Shown here: positions 36,394 through 60,175 of the stretch, in pieces
How the letters are laid out: each line of letters begins with the position of its first letter
Numbering within the stretch: the stretch's first letter is position 1
Source of the DNA: Naegleria gruberi
Lineage: Eukaryota
NCBI GenBank assembly: GCA_000004985.1
Contig: GG738904.1
Direction: 5' to 3' (one strand)
Length of the DNA stretch: 64,000 bases
Position numbers and translations under genes: made by a program
The notes under the pieces: model-generated
The model's database searches: none
What the model was told of the DNA's origin: nothing
Seen by the model: only the letters and a program-made list of their open reading frames with translations

Positions 36394-38079
36394 TTAAAAT
36401 CTGACAATATCATACTTTGCACTACATTCCTTTTGTTTTTCTTTGGAAATGAGAGGACACTTTTCCAACCATAAAACTTGTAATTCAAGTTTGGAGTTTA
36501 CAATTGTATCAATGGTCTTATTTGTGAGGCGTGCATTTCCACTTAGGAATAGTCTGGTGAGTTGAGGTTGTTGTTCAATGAGTTTTTGAATGGCATCATC
36601 TGTAAAATCATTTCCAATAACTCTGAATGCTTGTAAACATGGAATTTGTTCTTGAGATAATTTAGTTTCCAATATAAATTCATCAGTCAAGTTACATTTC
36701 TCAAGAGTGAGATAGGTAATCTCACATGGATGAGCAATAATCCTTTTGGCTTCTTGATTTCCAATTGGGTTGGCACTCAAATTGAGGAAATCCAATTTTT
36801 TAGGTAAATGTTCTAATAACCAATCAATGTTGGTAATTTTGTTATCTTCCAATTTGATTAATTTCAAGTTTTCATATCTACTTGGATCTATGGTAATATA
36901 ATTATCATCTCCAACGTTTGGGAATGTTATGGCATTGGATACAAGTTGAAGTTTGTGAAGTTTAGAACAATTTTCTAAAATATAACTAAATCCATCAAAG
37001 GTTATTCCACACTGATTCAATTTCAAAATCTTGACAGTTTTACATATTGATTTGACAAGTGTCTTGACACCAACATCTGAAAGGTTTGAACAATAATTGA
37101 AATCAACAGTTTCCAAATTATCAAATTGGAAATTTTTTAAATTTTGTAAAGCAGTTCCAACCATCAAATTCTTGCTCATTTCCAAGTATTTAAGCTGATT
37201 CAACAATTGAGCATTGTTTGGATGGAATAGTGACTTTAGTCCTTGGCTTCTTATTGAACACGCTGACAATTTCAAAGTTTCCAAATTTGGGCAATTAGTT
37301 TTAGACAAGGCATTAGCTCCAACGTCAGTCAATTTGTAACACTTATCAAAACATAATTCTTTACAGTTCAGATAAGCAAATTTAAATGATTCTTTTGTAA
37401 TATTTTGATTTTCCAGATAGAGAATAACCAATTTAGGAAACTTGAATAAATTACATAATTGATGTTCATCAGAAAATCCATAAATTGATGATAATACTAT
37501 TTGTCTCAATTCTGAATCCTCATAAACAATTCCATCAAAATTAAAATCAACTAAATTTTGAGTTTGGAATCCAGTAGATACATATAAAAATCTTAATTTA
37601 GGTAAAGTATTAAATAAAATCTTGAAGGAAGTGTCATAGACAGTGTTCAACTTTAAAAATCTCAAAGATTTACAATGAGATAATGATTCACACATATTAG
37701 AATTGAAGTGTTTTTGACTTCCTGTATAAACAAATCTCTTCAATTGTTGATTCTTCTCAAGGGCCAAACAATTTTCATCCCGAATCTGAAATTGTTCAAT
37801 TTTAATTCCAGTCGCTAATTTAAATATCGAATTGATTAAATAATTATCAATTTCCAACTTGGATTTAATATGAAAATGTTTATACAAAAAATAAATTAAT
37901 CTATTAGAATCCCAATTTTTATATCCGAAAAGAATATGTAGTAAATTAGCATTTGATTGTAAAGTTTCGAATTGTTTCTTTTTTAATGTGAGAAAGGAAT
38001 AAATTTCCAGAATGACATCCATTGGAAGAATGGAATAATCGGCTTCCTCCGATTCACCGTGTTCTTGATGTGATTGCAT
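36394..38079 (-). CDS. F-box/LRR-repeat protein (FBXL-like), 561 aa
   Basis: The F-box is ILPMDVILEIYSFLTLKK. Multiple Cys-containing LRRs include CPNLETLKLSACSIRSQGLKSL and LSDVGVKTLVKSICKTVKILKLNQCGITFDGF. ATG is at 38079 and the ORF is uninterrupted. Confidence 0.75.
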   Translation of the reverse strand: MQSHQEHGESEEADYSILPMDVILEIYSFLTLKKKQFETLQSNANLLHILFGYKNWDSNRLIYFLYKHFHIKSKLEIDNYLINSIFKLATGIKIEQFQIRDENCLALEKNQQLKRFVYTGSQKHFNSNMCESLSHCKSLRFLKLNTVYDTSFKILFNTLPKLRFLYVSTGFQTQNLVDFNFDGIVYEDSELRQIVLSSIYGFSDEHQLCNLFKFPKLVILYLENQNITKESFKFAYLNCKELCFDKCYKLTDVGANALSKTNCPNLETLKLSACSIRSQGLKSLFHPNNAQLLNQLKYLEMSKNLMVGTALQNLKNFQFDNLETVDFNYCSNLSDVGVKTLVKSICKTVKILKLNQCGITFDGFSYILENCSKLHKLQLVSNAITFPNVGDDNYITIDPSRYENLKLIKLEDNKITNIDWLLEHLPKKLDFLNLSANPIGNQEAKRIIAHPCEITYLTLEKCNLTDEFILETKLSQEQIPCLQAFRVIGNDFTDDAIQKLIEQQPQLTRLFLSGNARLTNKTIDTIVNSKLELQVLWLEKCPLISKEKQKECSAKYDIVRF

Positions 38080-44075: not shown

Positions 44076-45980
44076 ATGTCATTCTCAGTAGTTTCGAATA
44101 GTTGTTCTTCAGCTGTTACTACTAATGGACCACCATTAGAAAGTGTAAATATTGAAATGAGGTTGGATAGTGAGGTGTCAATGTATTCTGTTTCATTAGA
44201 TGGTATTTATGGAAATGTGTTATCTGAAGCAAATGTTGTCTCATCACCTGCTTTGAATAGTTGTGTTTCGTCCTTTTCATTGAAGAAACCTTCTCCATTG
44301 GATCAACGCTTGGATTTGTTGAAGTTTGTGAAACAATTTGTCAGAGTAGAGAAGAATGAAAGTAAGGAAGTAATTGAAGAGGAATTGAGAATTGTTTCAA
44401 CTTGGAGTCAACAAGATATGATGAACACTCCATCAGTGGCAAGCATGTCAAGTTTAAACTCTGAAATGAGTTTAATGTCAATGACCTCTGACAGATCATT
44501 AGCAAATATGATCAAAGATGATTATTTCAAAGTTCCAGAAAAGAAGGAAAAGAAGAATGGTAAAAGAAAGAGATCTCTAATTTATGATAAGAAGACAGGC
44601 ATATTCTTGTCAGTATTCAATTTGATTAATGATGTTTTGAGTCCAGGTACTTTGAGTATGTCTCAAATGACAGCTCAATCAGGTATTTTCTCAAGTTTGA
44701 TTCTTACCGTGTTCTTTGGATTGGTAACTTTATTTACTTTAATGATTTTATATGAATTGAGAAGAAAGTATTTGAAAACTAGTTTATTGGAATTGTCAGA
44801 ATTGGCATTTGGTAAACCAGGTGTTGTCATTGCAAGTATTCCAATTCTATTATTCAACTTTGGTGGGGCATTAGGCATGTTTATCATGTTTGGGCATTTA
44901 GTTCCAGATTTACTTTTACTAGTTGAAAAGAATTTCAGTTCTATTCTTAGTGGATATTCTTTCCTTTTTAGTAGAGAATCTGTATTGATAATTTTGACAA
45001 TTATTATGATTCCATTTGCTTTGAGAAAGAATTTGGGAAGTTACGCAATTACTTCATTCATTTCAGTTAGCTCCGTATTGCTGGTTGGAATTTGGTTGGC
45101 AATTGAAAAGATGACAGGTCAAAGAGCTCTCATTCCATCTTCTAATGCATTTGATTTTGCAAAGAGTGAAATTTTATCTGCTTTTGGAGCTTTGGCATTT
45201 ATCTATGTTTGCCACGATATAGTATTTCACATATTTTCCAATTTAAGAAGACCTACCAGATTTAGATTCTTTCTAGTGGCACTATTTGTAGTGATTATTA
45301 CAATCCTAACTATTACATGTGTTGGAATGAGTGGATATTTAATATTTTATGATAAGTGTCTAGATGACGCCAATGTATTGAACTTGTTTCCTTTCAATGA
45401 TCCAATGGCAATCATTGCAAGAATAATCATTTCCCTCAATATTATCATGTCTATTCCTTATGCATTATTCATGCCAAGGGATTGTTTGCATACATTGTTA
45501 AAGACAATTTTACCAAAAGTTTACAAGCGAATTCAAAAGACAAAAGTGAGAAGAAACATTCTTCATGTAATTTTGACAATGACAGTTTTATTGACATCTT
45601 TTGGAGTGGCTATTGGTGTTACTGATTTAGGCATTGTAGCAGATTTATTTGGAGCAGTAGCTGCTAGTTCATTAGCATATATTATTCCACCAAGTCTTTA
45701 TTTAAAATTGGAATTTTCATTTGGATGTTCATTAAAGAGATCAAATGATGAAAATATTGAACTTTCCAACACAAAATCAGTAACCGAAACCAATAACACT
45801 ATTATTGAACATCCATTGGAAGAGTATTACGCAAAGAAGAGCAATGATGCACATTCAAATTCTCTCAGACAACAATTATTTAGAATTCTAATTGGAGTTA
45901 CTTGTATGATGGTTTTGCTATTGGGTATTTTCATTCTAGTTGGAACCATTACAAGTGTAATTATTCATAAATTTGTCTAA
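44076..45980 (+). CDS. Aa_trans-family transmembrane amino-acid transporter (SLC38/AVT-like), 634 aa
   Basis: About 11 predicted TM helices are present. The characteristic N-terminal block reads IFLSVFNLINDVLSPGTLSMSQMTAQSGIFSSLILTVFFGLVTLFT. The ORF is uninterrupted. Confidence 0.8.
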   Translation: MSFSVVSNSCSSAVTTNGPPLESVNIEMRLDSEVSMYSVSLDGIYGNVLSEANVVSSPALNSCVSSFSLKKPSPLDQRLDLLKFVKQFVRVEKNESKEVIEEELRIVSTWSQQDMMNTPSVASMSSLNSEMSLMSMTSDRSLANMIKDDYFKVPEKKEKKNGKRKRSLIYDKKTGIFLSVFNLINDVLSPGTLSMSQMTAQSGIFSSLILTVFFGLVTLFTLMILYELRRKYLKTSLLELSELAFGKPGVVIASIPILLFNFGGALGMFIMFGHLVPDLLLLVEKNFSSILSGYSFLFSRESVLIILTIIMIPFALRKNLGSYAITSFISVSSVLLVGIWLAIEKMTGQRALIPSSNAFDFAKSEILSAFGALAFIYVCHDIVFHIFSNLRRPTRFRFFLVALFVVIITILTITCVGMSGYLIFYDKCLDDANVLNLFPFNDPMAIIARIIISLNIIMSIPYALFMPRDCLHTLLKTILPKVYKRIQKTKVRRNILHVILTMTVLLTSFGVAIGVTDLGIVADLFGAVAASSLAYIIPPSLYLKLEFSFGCSLKRSNDENIELSNTKSVTETNNTIIEHPLEEYYAKKSNDAHSNSLRQQLFRILIGVTCMMVLLLGIFILVGTITSVIIHKFV

Positions 45981-46577: not shown

Positions 46578-47951
46578 ATGGCATTAGGAAGTGAAAAATC
46601 GGATACACCAATGGAAAATGGAGAAAATTATGATTTGAGTGAGGATTATATAACTGATGATGAAGGTGATGAAGCCTTTATTAATGAAGAAGATATTGAA
46701 GAAGTAGCAGGAGAATATGGTGAAGATGATGCACCACCAAGTGATGAAGAAGATAATGAAGGAGAAGAATGGGTAGATGATGATGGAATGGAAGATGAAA
46801 GACCACTCCGAAATGTACCAGATCATTCTAATGCTTCATTCAATGAACATACAGATGCAATTTATTCAATTAGTGTTATTAATGATGGAAATGATAAATT
46901 TATTTGTGCTACTTCATCAGGAGATGATTCTGCATATTTGTGGACTTTTGATACAACAACAATGACAACAAGTCCAATTGCAAAACTTGCTGGACATACT
47001 GATACAGTTTTACAATCAAAATTCAATTTTGATAAGACAATTTTAGCAACTGCTGCTATGGATGGAACTGTTAAACTTTGGAATGCCAAGTCAGGTGCTT
47101 TTATTTCTTCATTAGAAGGTCCAGGTGATAGTATTGAATGGATTGATTGGCATCCAAGAGGTAATATTATCATTGGTGGTTCACAAGATGCTACTACATG
47201 GATGTGGAATACTCAAAAAGAAGTTTGTTTGAATGTATTTTCTGGTCACTCTGAAAGTGTTACAAATGGTTGTTTCACAACTGATGGAAAATTAATGGTA
47301 ACTGCTTCTGATGATGCTACTGTTAAAATTTGGAATCCAAAAACTGCTGAATGTATTGTCAATTACTCTGCTCATGAAAAGAATATCAAATCATTCTGTG
47401 AAGAACCAATTACATCTTTGAAATGTAGTACTCTTAATCCTTCAGTATTTTTATGTGGTTCTTTGGATGGTTCTATTGCACTTTGTCAATTGGAACAACA
47501 AAGAGTTATTAGCCATCTTAAAAACAAACATGCTCATACAAATTCAGTTGAAGAAGTTTTATTCCATCCAGAAAATCAAAGTTTACTTGTTTCTTGTGGT
47601 ATGGATGGTCAAATTGTTGTATGGGATACTAATGCTGGATCAGCTCGTCTAGTTTTAAAGAATTATCCAATAATAGAAAATCCAGAACTCGGATCAAGCA
47701 GTAGCAGTGATTTGAACTTTGATACAAATGGTACTCTTACTGGTGTTACACGTGCCTTCTTTGATTCTACTCAATCATACATTATTTATTCAGGTGATAT
47801 TTTAGGTAATATTCTCAGTTGGGATATCAGAACTGGAAAAGTTTTGAAATTATATCAAGGACATGCTGATGTTGTTTCTGATTTATCTCAATCATCAAAG
47901 TATATCTTTTCAACTTCAGAAGACAAGAGAGCACTCATTTTCAATAAATAA
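46578..47951 (+). CDS. WD40-repeat protein with an acidic N-terminal region, AAMP/Sqt1-like, 457 aa
   Basis: The N-terminal 90 aa are D/E-rich (DDEGDEAFINEEDIEEVAGEYGEDDAPPSDEEDNEGEEW). About seven WD repeats follow, for example GHTDTVLQSKFNF...WD. This architecture is typical of AAMP/Sqt1. Confidence 0.6.
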   Translation: MALGSEKSDTPMENGENYDLSEDYITDDEGDEAFINEEDIEEVAGEYGEDDAPPSDEEDNEGEEWVDDDGMEDERPLRNVPDHSNASFNEHTDAIYSISVINDGNDKFICATSSGDDSAYLWTFDTTTMTTSPIAKLAGHTDTVLQSKFNFDKTILATAAMDGTVKLWNAKSGAFISSLEGPGDSIEWIDWHPRGNIIIGGSQDATTWMWNTQKEVCLNVFSGHSESVTNGCFTTDGKLMVTASDDATVKIWNPKTAECIVNYSAHEKNIKSFCEEPITSLKCSTLNPSVFLCGSLDGSIALCQLEQQRVISHLKNKHAHTNSVEEVLFHPENQSLLVSCGMDGQIVVWDTNAGSARLVLKNYPIIENPELGSSSSSDLNFDTNGTLTGVTRAFFDSTQSYIIYSGDILGNILSWDIRTGKVLKLYQGHADVVSDLSQSSKYIFSTSEDKRALIFNK

Positions 47952-49154: not shown

Positions 49155-51152
49155 CTAATTTTTGTAATGTTGTTGCATTTGTTTTTGTAATTTCAATTTG
49201 TGAGCATTTTGTAAAACATCTCCTTTATCCACAGTCATTGATTTTGATTGAAAATATGGTTGATTCATTGTTTGTTTACAATAATCTTCTGGATTAAAAT
49301 CAAATACACAACTTCCAACTGTTAAATGATGAATTTCATCATGTTCATAATTATTTGGAATGGACAAATAAATAACCTTTTCATAGGGACATACTTTCTT
49401 AACTAATCCAATACATTTCAATTGAGTTTTTAATTCTTGATTTGTTTTAATGGTCATGAGTGGATATTCACTTGATTGATTGGAAATTAACTTGTTATGA
49501 TATTCATTTGTAATTATTCCATTATTATTTTTAGGAGGTTTAAATGAATAAACTCCAACAAATGATCCATTTAAATAATATAATCCTTTTGATAATTCAC
49601 TTGAATCTGTATTTAGTAATGTAATTATTACTTGATTCCATTTTAATTTAATTGTAGGAAGTTCTGCAAAGAATTCATAAATACTTTTAGAATTTCCCAT
49701 TGTTGTTGCAATTGTTGTTGTTGAGTTATTATTACTACTACTATTACTACTATTACTAATATTACTATTTTTAGAAATATTGAATGCAATTGTTTGCTGT
49801 AATGATTTTGTAAAAACCAAATCAAAAATTCTTTTAAATTCCTCAATTTCATAACAATATGAAAAATAAAACAAGTGTTGTAAATTAATTTTAGAAAAAT
49901 AATGATTTCTATAACCTTGTTTCGATCCAATAATAAATAAAGTTTCTAAATTTCTCAAATCAACAATTGAAGTATTTTCACCTGTAATTTCCCTATTATT
50001 AATATTATTAAAGAATATAGTATTATTTTTAATATTATTGTAATCTATTAATCCAGAAGGTGATGGATTCAAATTAATATTTTTATAATTACTTAATACT
50101 ATTAAATCTGTCATACCATTTTTGGTATTTTGATTTAAAATTTGAAGTAATTCCAAAATAATTTGATATCCACTTGAAGGTAATAAAGATTGACTATTAA
50201 TAATTAATGGAATATTTGAATATTTTTTACAATAAATTTGATATAATTCAAGTGATTGTTTTAAATAAGTTTCAATTTGAATATCAGTTGTTGAATGACC
50301 ATGATATATTTGGTAAATTAATTCATTTTTAGTATTTTGAAAAAGTGGTCCAAATGTTGGATTTGAATGAATTGAAAGTGATAATGTACCTCTAATTCCA
50401 AATGTAGGAACATTAATATTTAAATTTAAAAATGCTACTTTTGGATAATAATTTAATAATTCATTCATTAAATAATTACTAAATAAGGATTTACCTGATA
50501 AGGCATGTCCACATATTACATATTTTCTTAATTCTTTTCTTGTACATCTATTTATAACTCTTTTCATAAAATCATTTGCAAAATCAAATTTAATTAAATG
50601 TGTTGGAATATTAGAATTTCCATAAATGTAAAGTGATTCAAGTTTACGTTTTGATTTTTCTAATTTTAAATTATTAAATATTTGTAAATTTTTATGTAAA
50701 TAATAACATCTTGTATATAAATCATATTCTTCACTTTCCTTATTTGGTATATAAAATTTAATTAAACTTTCTTGATTTGTATTTTCAATTGCAATCATTC
50801 CATACATGCAATTACTATTTAATAAATAACTATTTGATGAATTTTTAATATTCTTTCCCAATATTTTAATACTTCCTTGTAAAACTTGAAAATAACAAAC
50901 TCCAATTAAGTAAATTGTTGAATTTAAATTCTTTAATTTAATTTCAATAGAATTTTTCATTTCCGAATTTAAAGATGATTCTTTTTCATCATCATTCATT
51001 TCATCAATATCTTCTTCTTGTTGATTCATTAATTCATTTGCATCATCATTATCTTCTTCTTGTTGATCATCGGAATTTTCTTGATTAATTTCCTCTTCAT
51101 TGATTTCATCATCGGAATCAACAATTTCTTCATTTTCTTTAAATTGTTTCAT
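49155..51152 (-). CDS. Clp1/Grc3/NOL9-family polynucleotide 5'-kinase-like protein, 665 aa
   Basis: A Walker-A-like block reads KYVICGHALSGKSLFSNYLMNELLNYYPKVAFLNLNINVPTFGIRGTLSL. It has the same layout as the Clp1/Grc3 motif vlvvGp..GKST..lLlNy.....vayldlDvGQ. The acidic N-terminus and overall length fit Grc3/NOL9. The ORF contains a poly-Asn/Ser tract. Confidence 0.6.
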   Translation of the reverse strand: MKQFKENEEIVDSDDEINEEEINQENSDDQQEEDNDDANELMNQQEEDIDEMNDDEKESSLNSEMKNSIEIKLKNLNSTIYLIGVCYFQVLQGSIKILGKNIKNSSNSYLLNSNCMYGMIAIENTNQESLIKFYIPNKESEEYDLYTRCYYLHKNLQIFNNLKLEKSKRKLESLYIYGNSNIPTHLIKFDFANDFMKRVINRCTRKELRKYVICGHALSGKSLFSNYLMNELLNYYPKVAFLNLNINVPTFGIRGTLSLSIHSNPTFGPLFQNTKNELIYQIYHGHSTTDIQIETYLKQSLELYQIYCKKYSNIPLIINSQSLLPSSGYQIILELLQILNQNTKNGMTDLIVLSNYKNINLNPSPSGLIDYNNIKNNTIFFNNINNREITGENTSIVDLRNLETLFIIGSKQGYRNHYFSKINLQHLFYFSYCYEIEEFKRIFDLVFTKSLQQTIAFNISKNSNISNSSNSSSNNNSTTTIATTMGNSKSIYEFFAELPTIKLKWNQVIITLLNTDSSELSKGLYYLNGSFVGVYSFKPPKNNNGIITNEYHNKLISNQSSEYPLMTIKTNQELKTQLKCIGLVKKVCPYEKVIYLSIPNNYEHDEIHHLTVGSCVFDFNPEDYCKQTMNQPYFQSKSMTVDKGDVLQNAHKLKLQKQMQQHYKN

Positions 51153-51334: not shown

Positions 51335-51384
51335 NNNNNNNNNNNNNNNNNNNNNNNNNNNNNNNNNNNNNNNNNNNNNNNNNN
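51335..51384. other. Assembly gap (50 N)
   Basis: This is a run of n characters. Confidence 0.99.
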
Positions 51385-51512: not shown

Positions 51513-52715
51513 TCATGATGGTGGTTGGTTGTGGTGGTGGAGTTGTGGTGGTGGAGGATGTGGCATTGATGATGATGGTGGACTCAAGTATTCCTGTTGG
51601 TGATCTTGGTGATGATGTGAAATTTGATCCTGATGCTCACTTTTAACACTCTTTGAACTTCTTGTACTTGTTGTGCTATTTGTACTTAGTGATGAATTAG
51701 CTCTCTTTCTACCACTTGAAGAGGTGCTGGAAGTATTCTTTCGTTTAGTTGTGCTTGTTGAAGTAGCACTTGAAGTATTTGAATCTGTTTGTTGATTCAA
51801 CTTTTTCCATTGATATAAATCATGGAAATAACAATAATTACAAATATTATTCCAGAACTTGGCAATATAATCTGGCTTGAACTCTGTTTCACATCTGAGA
51901 GAAAATCTTAAACGATTTGAAACATCCTTTGTACAATTTTGAATACAACACGTGGTTTGATGTACAAAAGCATTGAGCTCCTGAGTATTTGATGAACTAG
52001 AAGCAACTGTTTGATCATTTGAATGATTTGATTGATTGGAATGACTTCTTCGTCTTGTATTTGATGTTCTTCTCGTTGATTTTCTCTTCTTTGATTCTGG
52101 ACTACTTGTATTATTTGAATGACTACTACTGCTACCAGTACTACTACTGTTGGTAGATTGATTGACTAATGGTTCAGCAATATTGAGTTGTTCAGTCATT
52201 TCTTCATCTTCATCAGAAGGACTTGACAGTGATGATAATCTATTATTAGATTCATAAACGTGTTGATGAGTCATGGTTGATGAACTAGTTGGATGAGATG
52301 CAGTTGTTTGTGTGCCTTGTAGGAGTGGAGGTGGAAATACAATGCTCTGATTTGTAATTACTGGTACAGATGCAGTAGTGCTAATATTATTATATGGAAT
52401 GACATGAATGGATGATTGTATCATGTGTTGTTGTTGTTGTGGTGGTGATTGTTGCTGCTGATGATGATGAACATTACCTATTAATTGTGATGGCAATGTG
52501 AATGGATTGACAATGGTGTTAATAGCAGTATTGTTAGCATTGGTATTAGGAGAAGTGTTATTAGACCCAGTTGAATGTCCACCACTAGCATATGGTTTAG
52601 ATTGTAAAGTGTTAAATTCAGGATGAGTATGTGAAAAATCTTCACGGACCTTATCGAGTAGAATTTTTCTCATCCTTTTCTCTCTTTTTAATATTGAAGT
52701 AAGTGTGTAATACAA
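51513..52715 (-). CDS. Low-complexity (S/T/Q/H/N-rich) protein with one Cys-rich module; possible transcription regulator; about 400 aa
   Basis: ATG is at 52715. The Cys-rich module reads CCIQNCTKDVSNRLRFSLRCETEFKPDYIAKFWNNICNYCYFH. There are polyQ, polyH and polyS tracts. The 3' end lies 130 nt from the assembly gap. Confidence 0.4.
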   Translation of the reverse strand: MYYTLTSILKREKRMRKILLDKVREDFSHTHPEFNTLQSKPYASGGHSTGSNNTSPNTNANNTAINTIVNPFTLPSQLIGNVHHHQQQQSPPQQQQHMIQSSIHVIPYNNISTTASVPVITNQSIVFPPPLLQGTQTTASHPTSSSTMTHQHVYESNNRLSSLSSPSDEDEEMTEQLNIAEPLVNQSTNSSSTGSSSSHSNNTSSPESKKRKSTRRTSNTRRRSHSNQSNHSNDQTVASSSSNTQELNAFVHQTTCCIQNCTKDVSNRLRFSLRCETEFKPDYIAKFWNNICNYCYFHDLYQWKKLNQQTDSNTSSATSTSTTKRKNTSSTSSSGRKRANSSLSTNSTTSTRSSKSVKSEHQDQISHHHQDHQQEYLSPPSSSMPHPPPPQLHHHNQPPS

Positions 52716-54482: not shown

Positions 54483-55577
54483 ATGAGAAAAGAAGACCTT
54501 GTGAGTGTCATTACATTGATTATTACTGCAGCACTTTTAAATTTCTATCCAATTCTCTTCAATAACCAACAAACACTTGAAGAAATTGAACAACATCATA
54601 AAATTAATATGGAAACTCCTCTTAATACAGAAAGTAGAATAAACTCCATCCTATTGAAAGGAGCTTCAGGATATTCATGTATCCTTCCACCATCAGAAAC
54701 CAATAAGAAATACTTTAATTTAGGTGAGACAATTTACACTGGTAGTTCAGATATGTTACAATTTATTTGTGAATATTTAAAGAGACGAAACTTGGTGAAT
54801 GAAATTATTCCAAATTCAAGAAAATTGATGAAGAGATTAATATACGAAGCTCACTTGTTGGAAATGTTCGATTTGAGGGATAAAGTGATTAGAAAATATG
54901 TGAGCCCCTTTGTCGCAATTGATATGGTTGGATATCCTCAAAAAAAGAAAGAATTTATTATTCGAAACATACTTATTCGAAAGGCAATCACCAATTTTTA
55001 TAATACTAAGGGACCCTCCTTCACAAACACTCTTCCTACAAAGATTAGAGCTGCCCTATTTGATATTAGGAAGGAATTGAGCAATACTGCTTTTTTCATA
55101 TTCATCAATATTAGTAATGAACGAACTTTGAGAGGAATTTCAAAAGAAATTGTTGACTTGTTACCAAAATACTTATTTGAAATTGCAAATAGCTGTGAAT
55201 TGGAAAATATTATGAAAGAGCAATTTACAGAGCTACTTTTTTATTTGTTACAAAATATTGGAAATCGAGAATTGGTCCAAAGTGGAATGGCATTAACATC
55301 TCTACCAAAAATAGCTTTATTTATTCAACATAGACGAAATCTGTTTAATAATTATGAAAATTGTTTTACCAATTTTAGTGTTAGACCCATGATTGGATGT
55401 ATTGGATTTATAAAGAATATGTCAGGATCGTTATCTGCTTCGATTATTAGACAACTATATTCAGATAGTGAGTTGGCAGCATTCACTGAATTGCAGTATG
55501 ATAATTTAGGTGAACTGAAGGATCATTTTGATAAAATACTTTTGAGAACTCTCCATCATATCCTCAATTCATTTTAG
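54483..55577 (+). CDS. Hypothetical protein, 364 aa
   Basis: ATG is at 54483 and the ORF is uninterrupted. There is one N-terminal hydrophobic segment. No recognisable motifs were found. Confidence 0.45.
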   Translation: MRKEDLVSVITLIITAALLNFYPILFNNQQTLEEIEQHHKINMETPLNTESRINSILLKGASGYSCILPPSETNKKYFNLGETIYTGSSDMLQFICEYLKRRNLVNEIIPNSRKLMKRLIYEAHLLEMFDLRDKVIRKYVSPFVAIDMVGYPQKKKEFIIRNILIRKAITNFYNTKGPSFTNTLPTKIRAALFDIRKELSNTAFFIFINISNERTLRGISKEIVDLLPKYLFEIANSCELENIMKEQFTELLFYLLQNIGNRELVQSGMALTSLPKIALFIQHRRNLFNNYENCFTNFSVRPMIGCIGFIKNMSGSLSASIIRQLYSDSELAAFTELQYDNLGELKDHFDKILLRTLHHILNSF

Positions 55578-55889
55578 TACTCTACTTCCACCATTAAACA
55601 ATTTTCTAATAAATAAAAAATTGAAGAAGCATCTAAAGATATCACTTGATTCACCTTAGTGTTCATTCGGTTGATTCAATCACTAAGGTGAATTAGCTAA
55701 AGAGTTTGAATACATTGAGGTTGAACCATGTAGATTGTTCAAAACATAACACACTTTGTAATGTTTATTTTTTTGCAGTTTGGACTCTGAAGTGCAAACT
55801 CATCATTTTGAAAATGTGTTGTACTTTCTGAATTACTACTTATTGAACTGTATTATGTGCTCACCATGACACGTTCATCATCTTGTCGC

Positions 55890-57596
55890 TCATCTCTTTT
55901 TTTCTCTAAGAGTTTGATAAAATCTTGCCTTCTCGAAATCATATTCCTCAATTCCTGCAACAGGTTGATCATAACCTTCATGGTAGAAGGGGCATTTCGT
56001 ACCATTTTTACATTGACCTTTAACAAAATAAAGACATTTAATTGGTTTGAATAATCTAGGTTCACCTTGATGTTGGGCAGGAGGTTGTTTGCTGTTACTA
56101 TACTGATTTGTAGGTGGTTTGTTTTTTTGAGCTCCAGAAGAATTATTTTGATAGGAATGTTGGGAATGATAATTCATATTATGTTGTTGAGGAGGCATGT
56201 GACCACTCGATCTATTTTGATAGTAAGATCCTTGATTCGCTGGGGGTTGAGATCTTTGATAAGGTGAAGGTTGATGTTGATAAGGAGATTGGTGATGAGA
56301 ATGTGGGTAAGAATTGTTTGAATAATTATTTGCTGGAGGTAAAGGTTGTTGTTGATAAGGACTATGATTTGAAAGTGGAGGATTAGTAATTGGAGTTGGT
56401 GTGGTTGTTGGAAATCTATTGCTTGTAGTATTCAAAGAAGTAGGACTATTAGATATTATTCCAATGGTATTAAGTAAATTGTTGACAGAACTCTCAGTTG
56501 GTGAAGGAACTGGAGATGAAGGTGATTCTGTCACAATAATGGAAGGAGATGATCTAACCATTTCCTCAATAATTTTAGCTTCATTGCTGACAACTTCAAC
56601 TGGTGGCATCTTGTCATTTGGTTGTAAAATTCTTAATGGAGTAACATAATTCACTGTATTTCTCATATTGGAAAGAATCATAATCTTCACTTGTTTTTGT
56701 TGATTCATTAAAACTCTCTCATTTGATTTTTCCTCATTCATTAATTCTTGAACAGATCTATGATTAACTTCTTCCACATAGGCTTGTCTTGGTTCAATAA
56801 GTCTAACTTTTTCCAATTCTGTTGACCAACTAACTCTCTTTTTTTTCTTTGATGATTCTTCAGATTTAACTATTTCAAAATATTAAAGATGAATTATAAT
56901 AGAATGCATACCTTTCTTTGTAACACTTTCCACTGAATCACTTCGATTCAAATTTGAAGTTTGTGTTTCTTCTTGAGGTGAAGTTTGATCATCAGCTCTT
57001 TTTCTTTTTTCTCCACCTGTTGTAGTTGGTGTGGCTGGTTTTTTCTTTGGTATAGTTGGAGAGGAGGTTTCAGTTGGTGTGGTAGGAGTTGTTGGACCCT
57101 CCTTCACGAATTTTTGTTTCCAGTCTTGAATCAACTCATCAACACTTGTCTTTATTGTTTTGGAAAAGTTAGTTGACTTTGAAATAGAAGAAAGTATTTT
57201 ACCAATTTTTGCCTTTTTGATAATAGCCACATCTAATCCTCCACATTCATTCAACTTGTTGACAATGGAAATTAATTCCTTCAACATACTAATAAGATAT
57301 TAGGAAAATAATCCAATAAATAATACATACGTTTCATCTACGTGATCAGAACAATTAGTAATCCACTCGGACAGAATTGATAATCCATCCATAGTAAGAA
57401 AGTCTCTTAATATATTCTTCTTGACCGTAGAGTTTAGAACTTTGGTACATTCCATCCTCATTAACCTGATAGAGTCGGCTTGGGAAGATGTATATTTTAG
57501 CTGTTTGCATATTTCAACAAACGCAGGCAAATTTTCCTTCTTTGTTATTTTGTAGTTGTTGGTCAGGCTTTTAATTCTTTCCGTTACATCGATCAT
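55890..57596 (-). CDS. PNUTS (PPP1R10)-like PP1 regulatory protein with TFIIS N-terminal domain, RVxF motif and C-terminal CCCH zinc finger, about 536 aa; complement(join(55890..56857,56912..57288,57331..57596))
   Basis: The TFIIS-N/LW domain reads LRDFLTMDGLSILSEWI...LKELISIVNKLNECGGLDVAIIKKAKIGKILSSISKST.NFSKTIKTSVDELIQDWKQKF. A basic stretch followed by RVSW (KKKKRVSWSTE) spans the exon 2/3 junction. The C-terminal zinc finger is C-x7-C-x5-C-x3-H (CLYFVKGQCKNGTKCPFYH). Two introns of 42 and 54 nt (GTATGT..TTAG/..GAAG) are frame-exact. Confidence 0.65.
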
Positions 57597-58520
57597 TGTT
57601 GTATTTACTCCAAATAAATAATATTCAAAATTGATGATGAGGTAAAACCTCTGATGTTATTTAGTAAACAATAAATATTACTACGGAGAAATAATATAAA
57701 TTGTCTACAATATAGAAGGAATTATTCTAAAATTTTGTTGAACACAGGTTGATACTTTCTAGCTTTTGCCAAAACCTCGCCGTTTTGTGGTGATGCAAGT
57801 AATTGCAATTTAATATTTTTTTTTTCAATTCAAATTTTTTTTCTCTCACCAAAACTTTCTAGACAAAACTCGACGTTGAAGGCTTTTTGTTGTTTTTGCT
57901 TCAGTCTTGAGACTTTACAATGTCAAAGGTGTAGAAAGCATTGAGAGGTTGATAATAAATGATATTGAAAAATACAATGAGAAAACATACATCTCTTTGA
58001 ATTTTTTTCAAATATAGTGAATAATTGAAAATAATAGAATCAAAAAAAGTAAATTTCTAAACACAGTCAACATTGAACAAGTGAGGGTGATGAATTGTTT
58101 CGAACAATTCAAGGGGAGAGTCCTACATGAACATTCGAATATTAAGGTTTGTTGGTAATTCATCTCAAAAAAACATTGTACGGTATCATAAAAGTAAAGA
58201 ATAATTTCCAATTTGATATTAAATCCTTATTAAAAAAAGCAGAATTTATAGGCAACGCCATAATTTCCTCAAGGTCCAGAGCAATTTGAAGTTTACAAAC
58301 ATGTTGAGGTCGCATTTATCACCAAATTTATTGTCCAACAGATTCATATAACTGCAATGATCCAAGCCTTATTTAGTGGATTATAACATTTGCCGCTGTT
58401 TTTCTCTGCGTCCCTTCACAAGCCTTCATGCTGCTTTACTATATCGCCACCATCATCAAAGCATTGCGTTTGTTGTTGATGTTTGTCTACAGCTTCTTAA
58501 TAAATACATAATTAAAAAAA

Positions 58521-59483
58521 ATGTATAAACAGCCTAAAGTGAATATTTATTCCTTAAAATTGGAAGAGCTTACAGAGGTGTTTTCTTTCTGTTCCCTATT
58601 TGATTTTTATTCAATATCATTGACTTGTAGAGATTGGTGTGAGGTTGTTAGTGCATCAATGTCTGATAATAAATTTGCAAAGAGATATTATGGTTTAACG
58701 AGAGACAATATGATTCCTCTCCTCGGACCAGAAGTAATTTATCAAGAAGATGATAAAGCTTGTCGTCAAGAAAAGATTTCCAAGTTTTTATTCAATTGGG
58801 TTGATATTGTGGAAGAAAAGTATGAAAATGAACTTTGGATGAAAGGGTTTAAAGAATTAAGGAAGGATTTTCAAATTTCTACTGAAGAGCAAGTTGATAT
58901 GGAAATAGTATATAGAAGAGTTGTTAGATTAACAGGAGAGCACAAGTATAGAAATTGGACAGCTTTCAGTTTAATTTTAAATGGTGTTAGAATTCCATTG
59001 TTTGCAACTCTTGGAAAAGTACATGGTGAGATTAGATATTTATTTGTTATGGCTTTCTTTGATGAAGATGATAACATTACTTATGATATTGAAAATGCAG
59101 TTAGAACTGAAGAGGCTTCTTTTTATCATGAATTTAGTGGAGTTGATGCATCAAAATATGCTAGAAACTTTAAATGGATTCTAAACAGTTTTCCAAATTA
59201 TATTTCTCAGAAAAGATTTGGTTTTGAATTATTCCTATCAGTGTTAGAGGGTTATTTGAGACAAATGGATATTAATCCATTGTCGAAACGTCATTATCAA
59301 GGAAAACCACATACATCTCACAAAACTGACTTTTATATTATTAAGAAAATGGATACTTTTGTTTCCTTTTGGCCTTTACAAGAAGATCAATACGATGTAA
59401 TATCAATGCATGGAAGAGTTGTGGCTTCAATTTATCACATTAAGAAATTCTATGATAAAGGAAAGACTTTTGGATATACTTAA
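58521..59483 (+). CDS. F-box domain protein of unknown function, 320 aa
   Basis: ATG is at 58521. The N-terminus carries an F-box-like LKLEELTEVFSFCSLFDFYSISLTCRDWCEVV. The ORF is uninterrupted. Confidence 0.55.
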   Translation: MYKQPKVNIYSLKLEELTEVFSFCSLFDFYSISLTCRDWCEVVSASMSDNKFAKRYYGLTRDNMIPLLGPEVIYQEDDKACRQEKISKFLFNWVDIVEEKYENELWMKGFKELRKDFQISTEEQVDMEIVYRRVVRLTGEHKYRNWTAFSLILNGVRIPLFATLGKVHGEIRYLFVMAFFDEDDNITYDIENAVRTEEASFYHEFSGVDASKYARNFKWILNSFPNYISQKRFGFELFLSVLEGYLRQMDINPLSKRHYQGKPHTSHKTDFYIIKKMDTFVSFWPLQEDQYDVISMHGRVVASIYHIKKFYDKGKTFGYT

Positions 59484-59582
59484 TAAAGTATTACCATCAT
59501 GAAAGAATGGAACATGTTTAAAATCAAATTAACTACAAAATTCTCTTGTATAAAGACATGGAATCTTTAACTTAATAAAATT

Positions 59583-59655
59583 TGCCGACACCAGGGATCG
59601 AACCAGGGACCTTAAGATCTTCAGTCTTACGCTCTCCCAACTGAGCTATGTCGGC
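59583..59655 (-). tRNA. tRNA-Phe (anticodon GAA), 73 nt, no intron
   Basis: The minus-strand sequence is GCCGACATAGCTCAGTTGGGAGAGCGTAAGACTGAAGATCTTAAGGTCCCTGGTTCGATCCCTGGTGTCGGCA. It has a 7-bp acceptor stem, a D-loop AGCTCAGTTGGGAGAGC, an anticodon loop CTGAAGA and a T-loop GGTTCGATCC. Confidence 0.95.
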
Positions 59656-60175
59656 TTCTGTTGTAAAGAAATCCTTAATAAATTGGGTAATGTAAGGGTA
59701 TTGGTAATTGAGAGAAACCATTCACAATTAGAAAGAATTACTTTTGTAATTGCCAATTGTCAAACCACAAATAGTAACAAATGAAGAAAAGATGTTTCTC
59801 TCATGTCAATACTAACAAGATTCCTTCCAAATTTTAACTTGTAGAGTCAACAACATTTTTAAAGCTTGTTCTAATGAACTAATTTTCATTGATTCTCAAC
59901 AGGATACATTGTTAGTAATGCACTCTTATCTGTTTGTATTGTAAATAGTCGGATGCCAACAAAGCAAATCCTTTCCAACGTTCTTCTAATCTAATTTTAA
60001 AAACCCGAGTTGTTTTCTATTTTTATGCTACTGTGGTTGATGTCTTTTGTCTAAATTTTTTCAATTCTTCATAACGGACAAAGCTACATGGAAGTAGCGA
60101 TAAAGCCTTTAAATTTTAAAAAAAAATTATTGTAAAAAATATCTAAACATCTCCCGTTCTCTTTCTTTTAAAACA

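What the first reader, a model, noticed from the sequence alone, without database searches (positions are those of the whole stretch)
55890..57596. PNUTS-like protein: TFIIS-N domain plus KRVSW PP1-docking motif plus CCCH zinc finger
The three-exon model gives a protein with the hallmark PNUTS/PPP1R10 architecture. It has a TFIIS N-terminal (LW) domain with the IGK...WK core. It has a basic patch followed by a canonical RVxF-type motif, RVSW. It has a single C-terminal C-x7-C-x5-C-x3-H finger. The RVSW motif is created right at the exon 2/3 splice junction. A long-ORF-only annotation would therefore miss it. PNUTS-PP1 complexes control RNA polymerase II termination in animals and kinetoplastids. 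A clear amoebozoan counterpart would be worth documenting.
Basis: partly seen in the sequence, partly recalled or inferred. Interest (0 to 1): 0.6.

Follow-up and report, generated by a model that had tools for sequence, protein, structure and literature searches.

The report
PNUTS-type PP1 scaffold gene in Naegleria
This three-exon Naegleria gruberi gene, listed in public databases only as a "predicted protein", encodes a clear relative of PNUTS, the scaffold that docks protein phosphatase 1 onto the RNA polymerase II machinery; it is a new member of a known family, in a heterolobosean rather than an amoebozoan.

Summary
The minus-strand gene at 57596..55890 encodes a 540-aa protein with an N-terminal TFIIS-N domain (TND), a disordered middle with one KKKKRVSW motif, and one C-terminal C-x7-C-x5-C-x3-H finger.

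Four details are wrong:
- The window is Naegleria gruberi (Heterolobosea, Discoba), not an amoebozoan.
- The gene is already annotated with three exons (EFC38910.1 / XP_002671654.1 / D2VWK9, "predicted protein").
- Intron 2 is 56911..56870 (42 nt), not 56911..56858.
- RVSW (56837..56826) lies wholly in exon 3 and is not made by the junction.

Family assignment is well supported. Orthologues in N. lovaniensis, N. fowleri and Willaertia keep every block. A heterolobosean-only profile finds proteins combining a TND, an RVxF motif and/or a CCCH finger in fungi, a choanoflagellate, Rhodelphis and a green alga, one cluster being named PPP1R10. The central region alone matches theirs (hhalign 98.2%, E 3.6e-14). 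The family profile prefers the human PNUTS TND (87 bits) over SETD2 and IWS1 (48 and 47 bits). The top Foldseek hit is PNUTS:Tox4.

PP1 and WDR82 binding and a role in termination are inferred, not shown. This is a new member of a known kind, of modest interest. Its main value is as the undivided discoban counterpart of the reduced kinetoplastid PNUTS.

The parts
57331..57596 (-). Exon 1 (residues 1-89, first part of the TND)
   Evidence: ATG at 57596 is preceded by in-frame stops. The N-terminus MIDVTERIK aligns with MVDVTERIK of N. lovaniensis. The model matches EFC38910.1 exactly.
57289..57330 (-). Intron 1, 42 nt, GTATGT...TTAG, phase 2
   Evidence: It contains an in-frame TAA. The spliced junction DET|MLKEL is gap-free against the orthologues.
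56912..57288 (-). Exon 2 (rest of the TND, Thr/Pro-rich linker, conserved EKRK basic patch)
56870..56911 (-).
   Evidence: Only the product made with this acceptor (540 aa) is identical to EFC38910.1 / XP_002671654.1 / D2VWK9. The 536-aa alternative is absent from the collection. VKSE aligns with VKTD and MKME in the orthologues.
55890..56869 (-). Exon 3 (RVxF region, helix, WDR82-binding-like motifs, low-complexity Q/N/P/S tract, CCCH finger, stop TGA at 55892..55890)
57102..57539 (-). TFIIS N-terminal domain (TND), residues ~20-151, interrupted by intron 1
   Evidence: Pfam PF08711 scores 24.1 bits, above the 20.6 cut-off. AlphaFold pLDDT is about 80-94 with nine helices. The top Foldseek hit is 9ci7_A PNUTS:Tox4, TM 0.79. 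The family profile matches the human PPP1R10 TND at 1e-23.
56826..56849 (-). Basic patch plus RVxF-type PP1-docking motif, KKKKRVSW (residues 222-229)
   Evidence: V227, S228 and W229 are invariant in the Heterolobosea. It is the single strict RVxF match. It aligns with the human PNUTS [8 protein letters not shown] peptide of 4MOY.
56796..56816 (-). L-E-K-V-R-L-I (residues 233-239), candidate phi-phi/Phe-type extension of the PP1 docking site
   Evidence: It matches the family consensus L-x-x-[VI]-[KR]-x-[FYI]. It aligns with LREYFYF of the 4MOY peptide and with LTMVKVF of PPP1R3B.
56655..56753 (-). Long conserved helix VQELMNEEKSNER...ILSNM (residues 254-286)
   Evidence: AlphaFold pLDDT is 81-91. 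The block is nearly invariant in the Heterolobosea. It aligns with F..L..EK..ER in the other lineages. Its position matches the human PNUTS helix 429-452 described in PMC12187157.
56625..56648 (-). YVTPLRIL (residues 289-296), candidate WDR82/Swd2-contact motif
   Evidence: It aligns with VPWKAPQLL, IPWRTPDLI and EWRTPPRVL in the other lineages. It resembles human PNUTS 461-WVCPRPLVL-469, reported as a WDR82 contact (PMC12187157).
56511..56600 (-). S-x-E-A...SP-x-SP block (residues 305-334), second part of the WDR82-binding-like region
   Evidence: S309, E311, P331 and P334 are conserved. The block aligns with S.E...Q..R...L..Y....IPxTPxEP in fungi, a choanoflagellate, Rhodelphis and an alga.
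55980..56036 (-). Single CCCH zinc finger, C-x7-C-x5-C-x3-H (residues 493-511)
   Evidence: The pattern is exact. KPIKCL..KG.CKNG.KC..YHEG is invariant in the orthologues. Pfam zf-CCCH scores 18.0 bits against a 20.5 cut-off and Torus 25.8 against 29. The heterolobosean profile matches the RBM22 finger at E 2e-4.
55902..55979 (-). Heterolobosean-conserved C-terminal tail EGxD..G[VI]EEY[DN]FEKA..[YF]Q.L (residues 512-537)
   Evidence: The block is invariant or nearly so. A helix is predicted at 526-538 with low confidence. A partial match occurs in the JGI protein P0027.

Best explanation
The gene encodes the Naegleria gruberi member of the PNUTS (PPP1R10) / Ppn1 / Ref2 / LUMINIDEPENDENS family. 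These are largely disordered nuclear scaffolds that turn the PP1 catalytic subunit into an RNA-polymerase-II-associated phosphatase.

Shown here:
- A folded N-terminal TND.
- A disordered centre carrying one conserved basic-RVxF motif (KKKKRVSW) followed by a hydrophobic strand (LEKVRLI).
- A conserved long helix and two further conserved linear motifs (YVTPLRIL and S.EA...SP.SP).
- One C-terminal CCCH finger.
- All of these are collinear with proteins of the same layout from other eukaryotic supergroups.

Inferred from what is established for human, yeast, plant and Leishmania PNUTS-type proteins:
- The RVxF and hydrophobic strand dock PP1.
- The helix and the following motifs wrap a WDR82/Swd2 beta-propeller.
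- The TND captures a short motif on a chromatin or elongation-factor partner.
- The CCCH finger contacts RNA.
- The holoenzyme dephosphorylates Pol II CTD/Spt5 to slow elongation and promote termination.
For: - Gene model. The 540-aa spliced product is identical to GenBank EFC38910.1 / D2VWK9. It is collinear over 99% of its length with the N. lovaniensis protein (E 6e-115; alignment).
- TND. Pfam PF08711 scores above its gathering cut-off in N. gruberi and in all three full-length heterolobosean orthologues. The AlphaFold model is confident over residues 20-151. The top Foldseek PDB hit is PNUTS in the PNUTS:Tox4 complex (E 1.8e-4, TM 0.79).
- PNUTS preference of the TND. The heterolobosean-only profile ranks the PPP1R10 TND first among TND structures (E 0.0025, against 0.033 for IWS1). 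The 13-sequence family profile gives 87 bits (1e-23) for PPP1R10, against 48 bits for SETD2 and 47 bits for IWS1.
- Wider family. The heterolobosean-only profile searched against 1.84 billion proteins recovers members from Endogone, Obelidium, Salpingoeca, Rhodelphis and Tetraselmis at E 2e-10 to 1e-5. Most of them combine a TND, an RVxF motif and a C-terminal CCCH finger. The Tetraselmis cluster is named PPP1R10 by UniRef.
- Central region alone. hhalign of the heterolobosean alignment against the other lineages gives 98.2% probability, E 3.6e-14, over 125 columns.
- PP1-docking peptide. The central profile's best PDB hit is the PNUTS PP1-binding peptide of 4MOY. The second is the RVxF segment of PPP1R3B.
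- RVxF motif. The strict motif occurs once per protein, at the homologous site, in 12 of 14 family members.
- Literature mapping. Human PNUTS has RVxF at 398-401, a helix at 429-452, and WDR82 contacts at 461-WVCPRPLVL-469 and 520-IPLD-523 (PMC12187157). The first three appear in the same order and with similar spacing here; an IPLD equivalent is not recognisable.
Against: - No experiment or co-fold was possible. PP1 binding, WDR82 binding, nuclear localisation and any effect on termination are inferred.
- With the heterolobosean sequences alone, the TND prefers PNUTS over IWS1 by only about 4 bits. An IWS1-like protein (P0097) is hit at a similar E-value to an animal-type PNUTS fragment (P0093).
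- The match to the 4MOY peptide is weak in absolute terms (E 0.072).
- The human IPLD WDR82 contact has no recognisable equivalent in the Heterolobosea.
- The Phe position of the docking strand is Ile.
- The finger is C-x7 rather than the C-x8 seen in the other lineages, and it misses Pfam's zf-CCCH cut-off.
- I could not obtain a full-length animal PNUTS for a direct end-to-end comparison.
- I could not check that N. gruberi encodes PP1 and WDR82.
Confidence: 0.78

Rival explanations
1. It descends from the PNUTS family but does not work as a PP1-targeting termination factor in Naegleria. It could instead be mainly an RNA-binding or chromatin-linked adaptor, as parts of the plant LUMINIDEPENDENS function appear to be. 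The RVxF motif might then be vestigial or used with another partner.
For: Several features differ from the other lineages. The IPLD contact is not recognisable, and the Phe position is Ile. The finger is C-x7 and carries a heterolobosean-specific conserved tail EEYDFEKAKYFQSL. It scores closest to the RBM22/Cwc2 Torus-type fingers. No functional data exist for any heterolobosean member.
Against: The basic-RVSW block and the following strand are invariant or nearly so across Naegleria and Willaertia, inside an otherwise fast-evolving disordered linker. That argues for continued selection on the PP1 docking site. The helix and the [WY]..P motif that follow it are also retained.
Confidence: 0.12
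2. It is a different TND protein (IWS1/Spn1, TFIIS, Elongin A or Med26 type) that carries an RVxF-like string and a CCCH finger by chance.
For: With N. gruberi alone, the PDB sequence matches to PPP1R10 (E 0.048) and IWS1 (E 0.16) are both weak. IWS1 structures follow closely behind PNUTS in Foldseek.
Against: No TFIIS domain II/III, Elongin A or Med26 middle/C-terminal domain is detected at E <= 1. IWS1 carries its TND at the C-terminus and has no finger. The central region is homologous over 125 columns to that of the other TND+RVxF+CCCH proteins. The family profile prefers PPP1R10 by about 40 bits.
Confidence: 0.04
3. The three-exon model wrongly joins two genes, a small TND protein and a separate CCCH protein, as the N. 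fowleri reference annotation has it.
For: The N. fowleri reference annotation lists FDP41_009041 (161 aa, TND) and FDP41_009042 (390 aa, C3H1) as separate genes. Exon 2 begins with an ATG. No transcript data were available here.
Against: Joined models exist for N. gruberi, N. lovaniensis, Willaertia magna and N. fowleri (CAG4719568.1). Both introns are in-frame-restoring GT..AG introns of 42 nt. The sequence across both junctions aligns without gaps. The same single-chain layout is found in fungi, a choanoflagellate and an alga.
Confidence: 0.04
4. The RVSW...ELMN stretch is the start of a GARP/Myb-like DNA-binding domain, as in plant ARR1, rather than a PP1 docking site.
For: phmmer of residues 211-300 hits the ARR1 GARP domain (KKPRVVWSVELHQ...ILELMN) at E 0.03, with the same W-to-LMN spacing.
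Against: The orthologues carry insertions of about 10-20 residues between IEPR and HK.VQELMN, which a compact three-helix domain would not tolerate. AlphaFold gives pLDDT below 50 for residues 233-251 and one long helix instead of a Myb fold. The central profile hits PNUTS and PPP1R3B docking peptides, not Myb domains.
Confidence: 0.02

Closest known systems
Human/animal PNUTS (PPP1R10), scaffold of the PTW/PP1 complex (PNUTS-Tox4-WDR82-PP1)
   Same: The order of parts is the same: N-terminal extended TND (~150 aa), a basic patch plus RVxF (human RKRKTVTW, here KKKKRVSW) followed by a hydrophobic strand, then a helix, then a [WY]-V-x-P...L motif (human WVCPRPLVL, here YVTPLRIL), a long low-complexity tract and a single C-terminal CCCH finger. 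The TND is the best PDB match by profile and by fold.
   Different: The Naegleria protein is 540 aa against 940 aa in human. It has no recognisable IPLD motif. The Phe position of the docking strand is Ile. The finger is C-x7 with a lineage-specific conserved tail. Tox4, the animal TND partner, is not known outside animals, so the Naegleria TND partner is unknown.
Kinetoplastid PNUTS (Leishmania/T. brucei PJW/PP1 complex: PNUTS, JBP3, Wdr82, PP1-8e)
   Same: Both belong to the same supergroup (Discoba). Both carry a central RVxW docking motif (Leishmania RVCW, here RVSW) with a following hydrophobic strand in a disordered scaffold (PMC10731240).
   Different: Leishmania PNUTS is 264 aa and has no identifiable domain other than the RVxF region. 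A PNUTS-like TND sits instead on JBP3 (PMC8544896). The Naegleria protein keeps the TND, the docking site and the CCCH finger in one chain. I could not align the two directly because no kinetoplastid sequence was obtainable.
Arabidopsis LUMINIDEPENDENS, yeast Ref2 and S. pombe Ppn1 (regulatory subunits of the CPF/APT phosphatase module with Swd2/APRF1 and Glc7/TOPP4)
   Same: All are TND-containing, largely disordered scaffolds that bind a WDR82-type propeller and a PP1 (PMC7616277).
   Different: LD has an N-terminal homeodomain, which is also present in the chytrid relative P0118 but absent here. Sequence similarity of Ref2 and LD to PNUTS is reported as low, and no direct comparison was made here. 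S. pombe Ppn1 is named from my own knowledge and was not checked.
IWS1/Spn1 TND
   Same: It has an extended TND fold of about 150 residues. It is among the closest structural matches after PNUTS.
   Different: The IWS1 TND is C-terminal and binds Spt6. IWS1 has no RVxF/WDR82-binding centre and no CCCH finger.

Membership tests
PNUTS / PPP1R10 family | N-terminal TFIIS-N (TND) helical bundle of the extended, PNUTS type | tested here: met
   PF08711 scores 24.1 bits, above the 20.6 cut-off. The AlphaFold model is confident over residues 20-151. The top Foldseek hit is 9ci7_A PNUTS:Tox4, TM 0.79. PPP1R10 is the best TND in the PDB for the heterolobosean profile (E 0.0025, against 0.033 for IWS1). 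For the family profile it scores 87 bits against 48 bits or fewer for other TND families.
PNUTS / PPP1R10 family | Central RVxF PP1-docking motif preceded by basic residues and followed by a hydrophobic (phi-phi/Phe) strand | tested here: met
   KKKKRVSW-STE-LEKVRLIE fits both published consensus forms (PMC10731240, PMC8544896). It is the single strict match and is invariant in the orthologues. It aligns to the 4MOY PNUTS peptide, which is the top PDB hit of the central profile.
PNUTS / PPP1R10 family | Physical binding of the PP1 catalytic subunit through that motif | not testable with these tools
   No complex prediction or experiment is available, and no N. gruberi PP1 sequence could be retrieved.
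PNUTS / PPP1R10 family | WDR82/Swd2-binding region downstream of the PP1 site (human residues 453-524: WVCPRPLVL ... IPLD) | tested here: inconclusive
   YVTPLRIL and S.EA..SP.SP align with W..P and IPxTPxEP of the other lineages. They sit at the human-like distance from RVxF. An IPLD equivalent is not recognisable in the Heterolobosea. Binding was not tested.
PNUTS / PPP1R10 family | Single C-terminal CCCH (C3H1) zinc finger | tested here: met
   The exact C-x7-C-x5-C-x3-H pattern lies at residues 493-511 and is invariant in the orthologues. Several CCCH Pfam models hit at E 0.0015-0.03 but below their cut-offs. The heterolobosean profile matches the RBM22 finger at E 2e-4.
PNUTS / PPP1R10 family | Homology to other members beyond the promiscuous TND and CCCH modules | tested here: met
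   hhalign restricted to the central region gives 98.2% probability, E 3.6e-14, over 125 columns. Whole-library hits at E 2e-10 to 1e-5 are to proteins of this layout, one cluster of which is named PPP1R10.
PNUTS / PPP1R10 family | Role in Pol II CTD/Spt5 dephosphorylation and transcription termination | not testable with these tools
   Functional data are needed, and none exist for any heterolobosean.
IWS1/Spn1 | C-terminal TND preceded by an acidic disordered N-terminus, with no zinc finger | tested here: not met
   The TND starts at residue ~20. A CCCH finger is present. The IWS1 TND scores lower than PPP1R10.
TFIIS / Elongin A / Med26 | TND combined with TFIIS domains II/III (zinc ribbon), the Elongin A BC-box region, or the Med26 middle/C-terminal domains | tested here: not met
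   None of these domains is found at E <= 1 in Pfam. Their TNDs score 36-39 bits against 87 bits for PPP1R10 with the family profile.
GARP/Myb-like (ARR1-type) DNA-binding domain | Compact three-helix domain with fixed spacing | tested here: not met
   The only support is an E 0.03 sequence match. The orthologues have variable insertions in this stretch. No Myb fold appears in the model.

The most novel reading that the evidence does not exclude
The heterolobosean protein may be the undivided, ancestral discoban form of the PNUTS scaffold. In kinetoplastids the same module appears to have been taken apart. Their PNUTS is a 264-aa remnant with only the RVxF/Wdr82-binding part. A PNUTS-like TND sits on the base-J reader JBP3, and the CCCH finger is lost. 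If so, Naegleria would be a free-living discoban in which to ask how PP1-dependent Pol II termination worked before polycistronic transcription and base J evolved. It could also show what the TND originally bound.
Probability: 0.3. Interest if true: 0.5.

Novelty: new member of a known kind. Interest (0 to 1): 0.33.

Why it matters
- It gives a functional name to a "predicted protein" in Naegleria gruberi and to its unnamed orthologues in N. lovaniensis, N. fowleri (a human pathogen) and Willaertia.
- It shows that the full PNUTS layout occurs in Discoba as well as in opisthokonts and green algae. That layout is the TND, the RVxF site, the helix, WDR82-binding-like motifs and the CCCH finger. 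Its spread suggests that the whole arrangement, not just the PP1 docking site, dates back to early eukaryotes.
- It provides an outgroup for interpreting the much reduced kinetoplastid PNUTS and the TND on JBP3.
- It flags an annotation error: the N. fowleri reference annotation splits the orthologue in two.
- It is not surprising to a specialist, because the PNUTS/Ref2/LD module is already regarded as conserved in animals, fungi, plants and kinetoplastids.

Tried and rejected
Its product is not in the collection, whereas the product of the 42-nt version equals GenBank EFC38910.1 and aligns better.
- The search for homologous proteins with the trimmed 13-sequence family alignment returned only 5 hits. 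With the human PNUTS TND it returned only fragments of 200 aa or fewer. No full-length animal PNUTS was obtained, so the link to human PNUTS rests on PDB chains (the TND and the 4MOY peptide) and on motifs quoted in papers.
- The GARP/ARR1 similarity of RVSW..ELMN was rejected on indel variation and the structure model.
- The neighbouring WD40 gene at 46578..47951 was checked as a possible WDR82. Its best PDB matches are generic or designed WD40 proteins and WDR5, so there is no specific link.
- The short TND-only hits of the big profile search were inspected. They are truncated models, one animal-type PNUTS fragment (P0093) and one IWS1-like protein (P0097). The TND alone therefore discriminates weakly.
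- A second, 99.1%-identical strain (metagenome contig L001) was compared for coding constraint. Only two substitutions fall in the gene, which is too few to test.
- Literature searches for PNUTS or PPP1R10 with Naegleria or Heterolobosea, and for the accession numbers, found nothing relevant.
Full report
**What is in the sequence**

On the minus strand an ATG at 57596, preceded by in-frame stops, opens a reading frame that is interrupted twice.

- Intron 1 (57330..57289) is a 42-nt GTATGT...TTAG intron containing an in-frame TAA.

Splicing gives 540 or 536 residues respectively. The 540-aa product is letter-for-letter the GenBank/UniProt protein EFC38910.1 / XP_002671654.1 / D2VWK9 (NAEGRDRAFT_81490, "predicted protein"). 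The 536-aa product is not in the 15-billion-protein collection. The extra four residues, VKSE, align with VKTD, MKME and AKMD in the orthologues. I therefore take 56911..56870 as intron 2.

The codons for R226-V-S-W229 lie at 56837..56826, entirely inside exon 3 and 32 nt from the acceptor. The motif is therefore not created by splicing. It does lie upstream of the first start codon of the long ORF. A prokaryote-style gene call on a 99.1%-identical metagenome contig cuts the gene into ORFs of 98, 134 and 308 aa, none of which contains RVSW.

**Organism**

Nine neighbouring single-ORF proteins in the window are exact matches to Naegleria gruberi proteins on one 297-kb scaffold. They include the two flanking genes, D2VWK8 and D2VWL0. 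Naegleria is a heterolobosean (Discoba), not an amoebozoan. This changes the comparative context, because its best-studied relatives for this pathway are the kinetoplastids.

**Domains and motifs**

- TND: Pfam PF08711 (TFIIS helical bundle-like, TND) scores 24.1 bits against a gathering cut-off of 20.6, over residues 110-147. The same holds for N. lovaniensis, N. fowleri and Willaertia.
- Finger: several CCCH models hit residues 489-511 at E 0.0015-0.03 but below their cut-offs. PF00642 scores 18.0 against 20.5, and Torus 25.8 against 29. The pattern CLYFVKGQCKNGTKCPFYH is an exact C-x7-C-x5-C-x3-H.
- RVxF: KRVSW is the only match in the protein to a strict RVxF consensus that I recalled from memory. 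A shuffled copy of the protein carries such a match 3.5% of the time. It also fits the two consensus forms quoted in PMC10731240 and PMC8544896.
- Structure: an AlphaFold model built on the four-sequence alignment is confident for residues 20-151 (nine helices, pLDDT about 80-94) and for one long helix at 254-286 (pLDDT 81-91). It is disordered elsewhere. A folded head on a disordered body with short linear motifs is the expected shape of a PP1 regulatory scaffold.

**Orthologues**

The closest full-length relatives are from N. lovaniensis (E 6e-115, 99% coverage), Willaertia magna and a JGI metagenome, plus N. fowleri. Inside an otherwise fast-changing linker the following are invariant or nearly so:
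- EKRK, a candidate nuclear localisation signal;
- KKK[RK]VSWS..LE.[VI].[LM]I[ED].R;
- HK.VQELMNEEKS.ER..L.QQ.Q.K..IL..M;
- S.EA...SP.SP;
- KPIKCL..KG.CKNG.KC..YHEG.D...G[VI]EEY.FEKA.

Both splice junctions are bridged without gaps.

**Relatives outside the Heterolobosea**

A profile made only from the four heterolobosean sequences was run against 1.84 billion representative proteins. It found 230 hits at E <= 0.001. Many are CCCH-only proteins. A distinct set has a TND, and most of these also carry a single basic-RVxF motif and a C-terminal CCCH finger:

| Protein | Source | RVxF region | Whole-library E-value |
|---|---|---|---|
| P0037 | Endogone (fungus) | KKRKRVTW | 2e-10 |
| P0069 | JGI metagenome | KKRKRVSW | 1.7e-7 |
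| P0066 | Rhodelphis marinus (model lacks the finger) | RKRKKVSW | 1.3e-7 |
| P0115 | Salpingoeca urceolata (choanoflagellate) | KRRVHW | 8e-6 |
| P0118 | Obelidium (chytrid) | KKKKAVKF | 9e-6 |
| P0067/P0169 | Tetraselmis (green alga) | KAKAVKW | 1.6e-7 |

A 14-sequence alignment shows collinear blocks:
- the TND;
- basic-RVxW followed by L..[VI][KR].[FYI];
- F..L..EK..ER;
- M...V.[WY]..P;
- S.E...Q..R...L..Y....IP.TP.EP;
- the CCCH finger.

hhalign restricted to the central region, with no TND and no finger, compares the heterolobosean sequences with the other lineages. It gives 98.2% probability, E 3.6e-14, over 125 aligned columns. The similarity is therefore not just two promiscuous domains plus a short motif.

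**Link to bona fide PNUTS**

- Family profile against the PDB: human/rodent PPP1R10 TND structures score 85-87 bits (about 1e-23). SETD2 scores 48 bits, IWS1 47, Elongin A 39, TFIIS 38 and MED26 36.
- Heterolobosean-only profile: it also ranks PPP1R10 first among TND structures, but narrowly (E 0.0025, against 0.033 for IWS1).
- N. gruberi alone: PPP1R10 E 0.048, IWS1 E 0.16.
- Foldseek with the model: PNUTS in the PNUTS:Tox4 complex is first (9ci7_A, E 1.8e-4, TM 0.79, rmsd 3.3 Å). A chain of a Pol II elongation complex (9s3g_O) comes next, followed by IWS1/Spn1 and further PNUTS entries.
- Central-region profile against the PDB: the best hit among 177,635 sequences is the PNUTS PP1-binding peptide crystallised with PP1 (4MOY/4MP0; [21 protein letters not shown]). 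The E-value is weak (0.072). The next hit is the RVxF segment of PPP1R3B.
- Published human features, in order: RVxF at 398-401, a helix at 429-452, and WDR82 contacts at 461-WVCPRPLVL-469 and 520-IPLD-523 (PMC12187157).
- N. gruberi shows RVSW at 226-229, a helix at 254-286 and YVTPLRIL at 289-296, in the same order and with similar spacing. IPLD-like strings are present in the fungal, choanoflagellate and metagenome members but not recognisably in the Heterolobosea.

**How it most likely works**

Shown: the anatomy above and its conservation.

Inferred from the human, yeast, plant and Leishmania systems:
- KKKKRVSW and the LEKVRLI strand dock the PP1 catalytic subunit away from its active site.
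- The helix and the following motifs bind a WDR82/Swd2 propeller.
- The TND binds a short TND-interacting motif on an unknown partner. In animals this partner is Tox4.
- The CCCH finger contacts RNA.
- The assembled phosphatase acts on the Pol II CTD and Spt5 to slow elongation and allow termination.

I put about 0.8 on family membership. I am somewhat less confident of the full mechanism.

**Rivals**

- A PNUTS descendant with a diverged job remains possible (about 0.12). The reasons are the missing IPLD, Ile at the Phe position, and a C-x7 finger with a lineage-specific tail that scores nearest to RBM22/Cwc2 fingers.
- A different TND family is unlikely. The partner domains of TFIIS, Elongin A and Med26 are absent. 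IWS1 has the opposite domain order and no finger.
- A mis-joined gene is unlikely. Joined models exist in four heterolobosean species, and the single-chain layout is found elsewhere. However, the N. fowleri reference annotation does split it, and I had no transcript data.
- A GARP/Myb-like reading (E 0.03 to ARR1) is rejected. The orthologues insert about 10-20 residues in the middle of the supposed domain, and the model shows no Myb fold.

**Novelty and interest**

No paper in the library mentions PNUTS or PPP1R10 together with Naegleria or Heterolobosea in a relevant way, or cites this protein's accession numbers. The family itself is well known and is already regarded as conserved in animals, yeasts, plants (LUMINIDEPENDENS) and kinetoplastids. 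This is therefore a new member of a known kind.

The most interesting angle is comparative. Leishmania PNUTS is a 264-aa protein with no recognisable domain besides the RVxF region, and a PNUTS-like TND sits on JBP3. Naegleria, in the same supergroup, keeps everything in one chain. That suggests the kinetoplastid arrangement is derived.

Noticed in passing
Relatives of the window gene: P0019/P0176/P0177 (N. fowleri): The N. fowleri reference annotation splits the orthologue into two genes: FDP41_009041 (161 aa, TND) and FDP41_009042 (390 aa, C3H1). A second annotation, CAG4719568.1 (590 aa), has the joined protein. The split hides the PNUTS layout in this pathogen's reference proteome.
   Followed up: partly
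L001:1-4739 = window 54940..59659: An ENA metagenome contig (ERZ929261, PRJEB11402) is 99.1% identical to this part of the window, so a near-identical Naegleria strain is present in that sample. Its indels are intergenic, apart from one 3-nt in-frame insertion in D2VWK8. Only two substitutions fall in the PNUTS-like gene, both in the low-complexity part of exon 3.
   Followed up: partly
P0118 (Obelidium mucronatum, chytrid), found by the profile search: This protein has a homeodomain (PF00046, 44 bits), a TND, an RVxF motif (KAVKF) and a C-terminal CCCH finger in one chain. That resembles the plant LUMINIDEPENDENS layout in a fungus. Rhodelphis P0066 also looks homeodomain-like at its N-terminus by eye, but Pfam did not report a homeodomain there.
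   Followed up: no
window 49155..51152 (-): A 665-aa protein (D2VWK6) with a CLP1 P-loop domain (PF16575, 64 bits) lies about 4.7 kb from the PNUTS-like gene. By length it is more like Grc3/NOL9 than the 3'-end factor Clp1. The proximity is probably coincidental.
   Followed up: no
window 46578..47951 (+): A 457-aa WD40 protein (D2VWK5) was checked as a possible WDR82. Its best PDB matches are generic or designed WD40 proteins and WDR5, so there is no specific link.
   Followed up: yes
window 51335..51384: A run of 50 N (assembly gap) lies between the CLP1-like gene and the ORF at 51513..52715.
   Followed up: no
window 1702..7341 (-) and 11064..19337 (+): Two very long ORFs (1879 and 2757 aa) were not examined. 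Other neighbours are V-ATPase subunit A (30051..31871), an amino-acid transporter (44076..45980), a Ras/Roc GTPase (345..1661) and an LRR protein (36394..38079).
   Followed up: no
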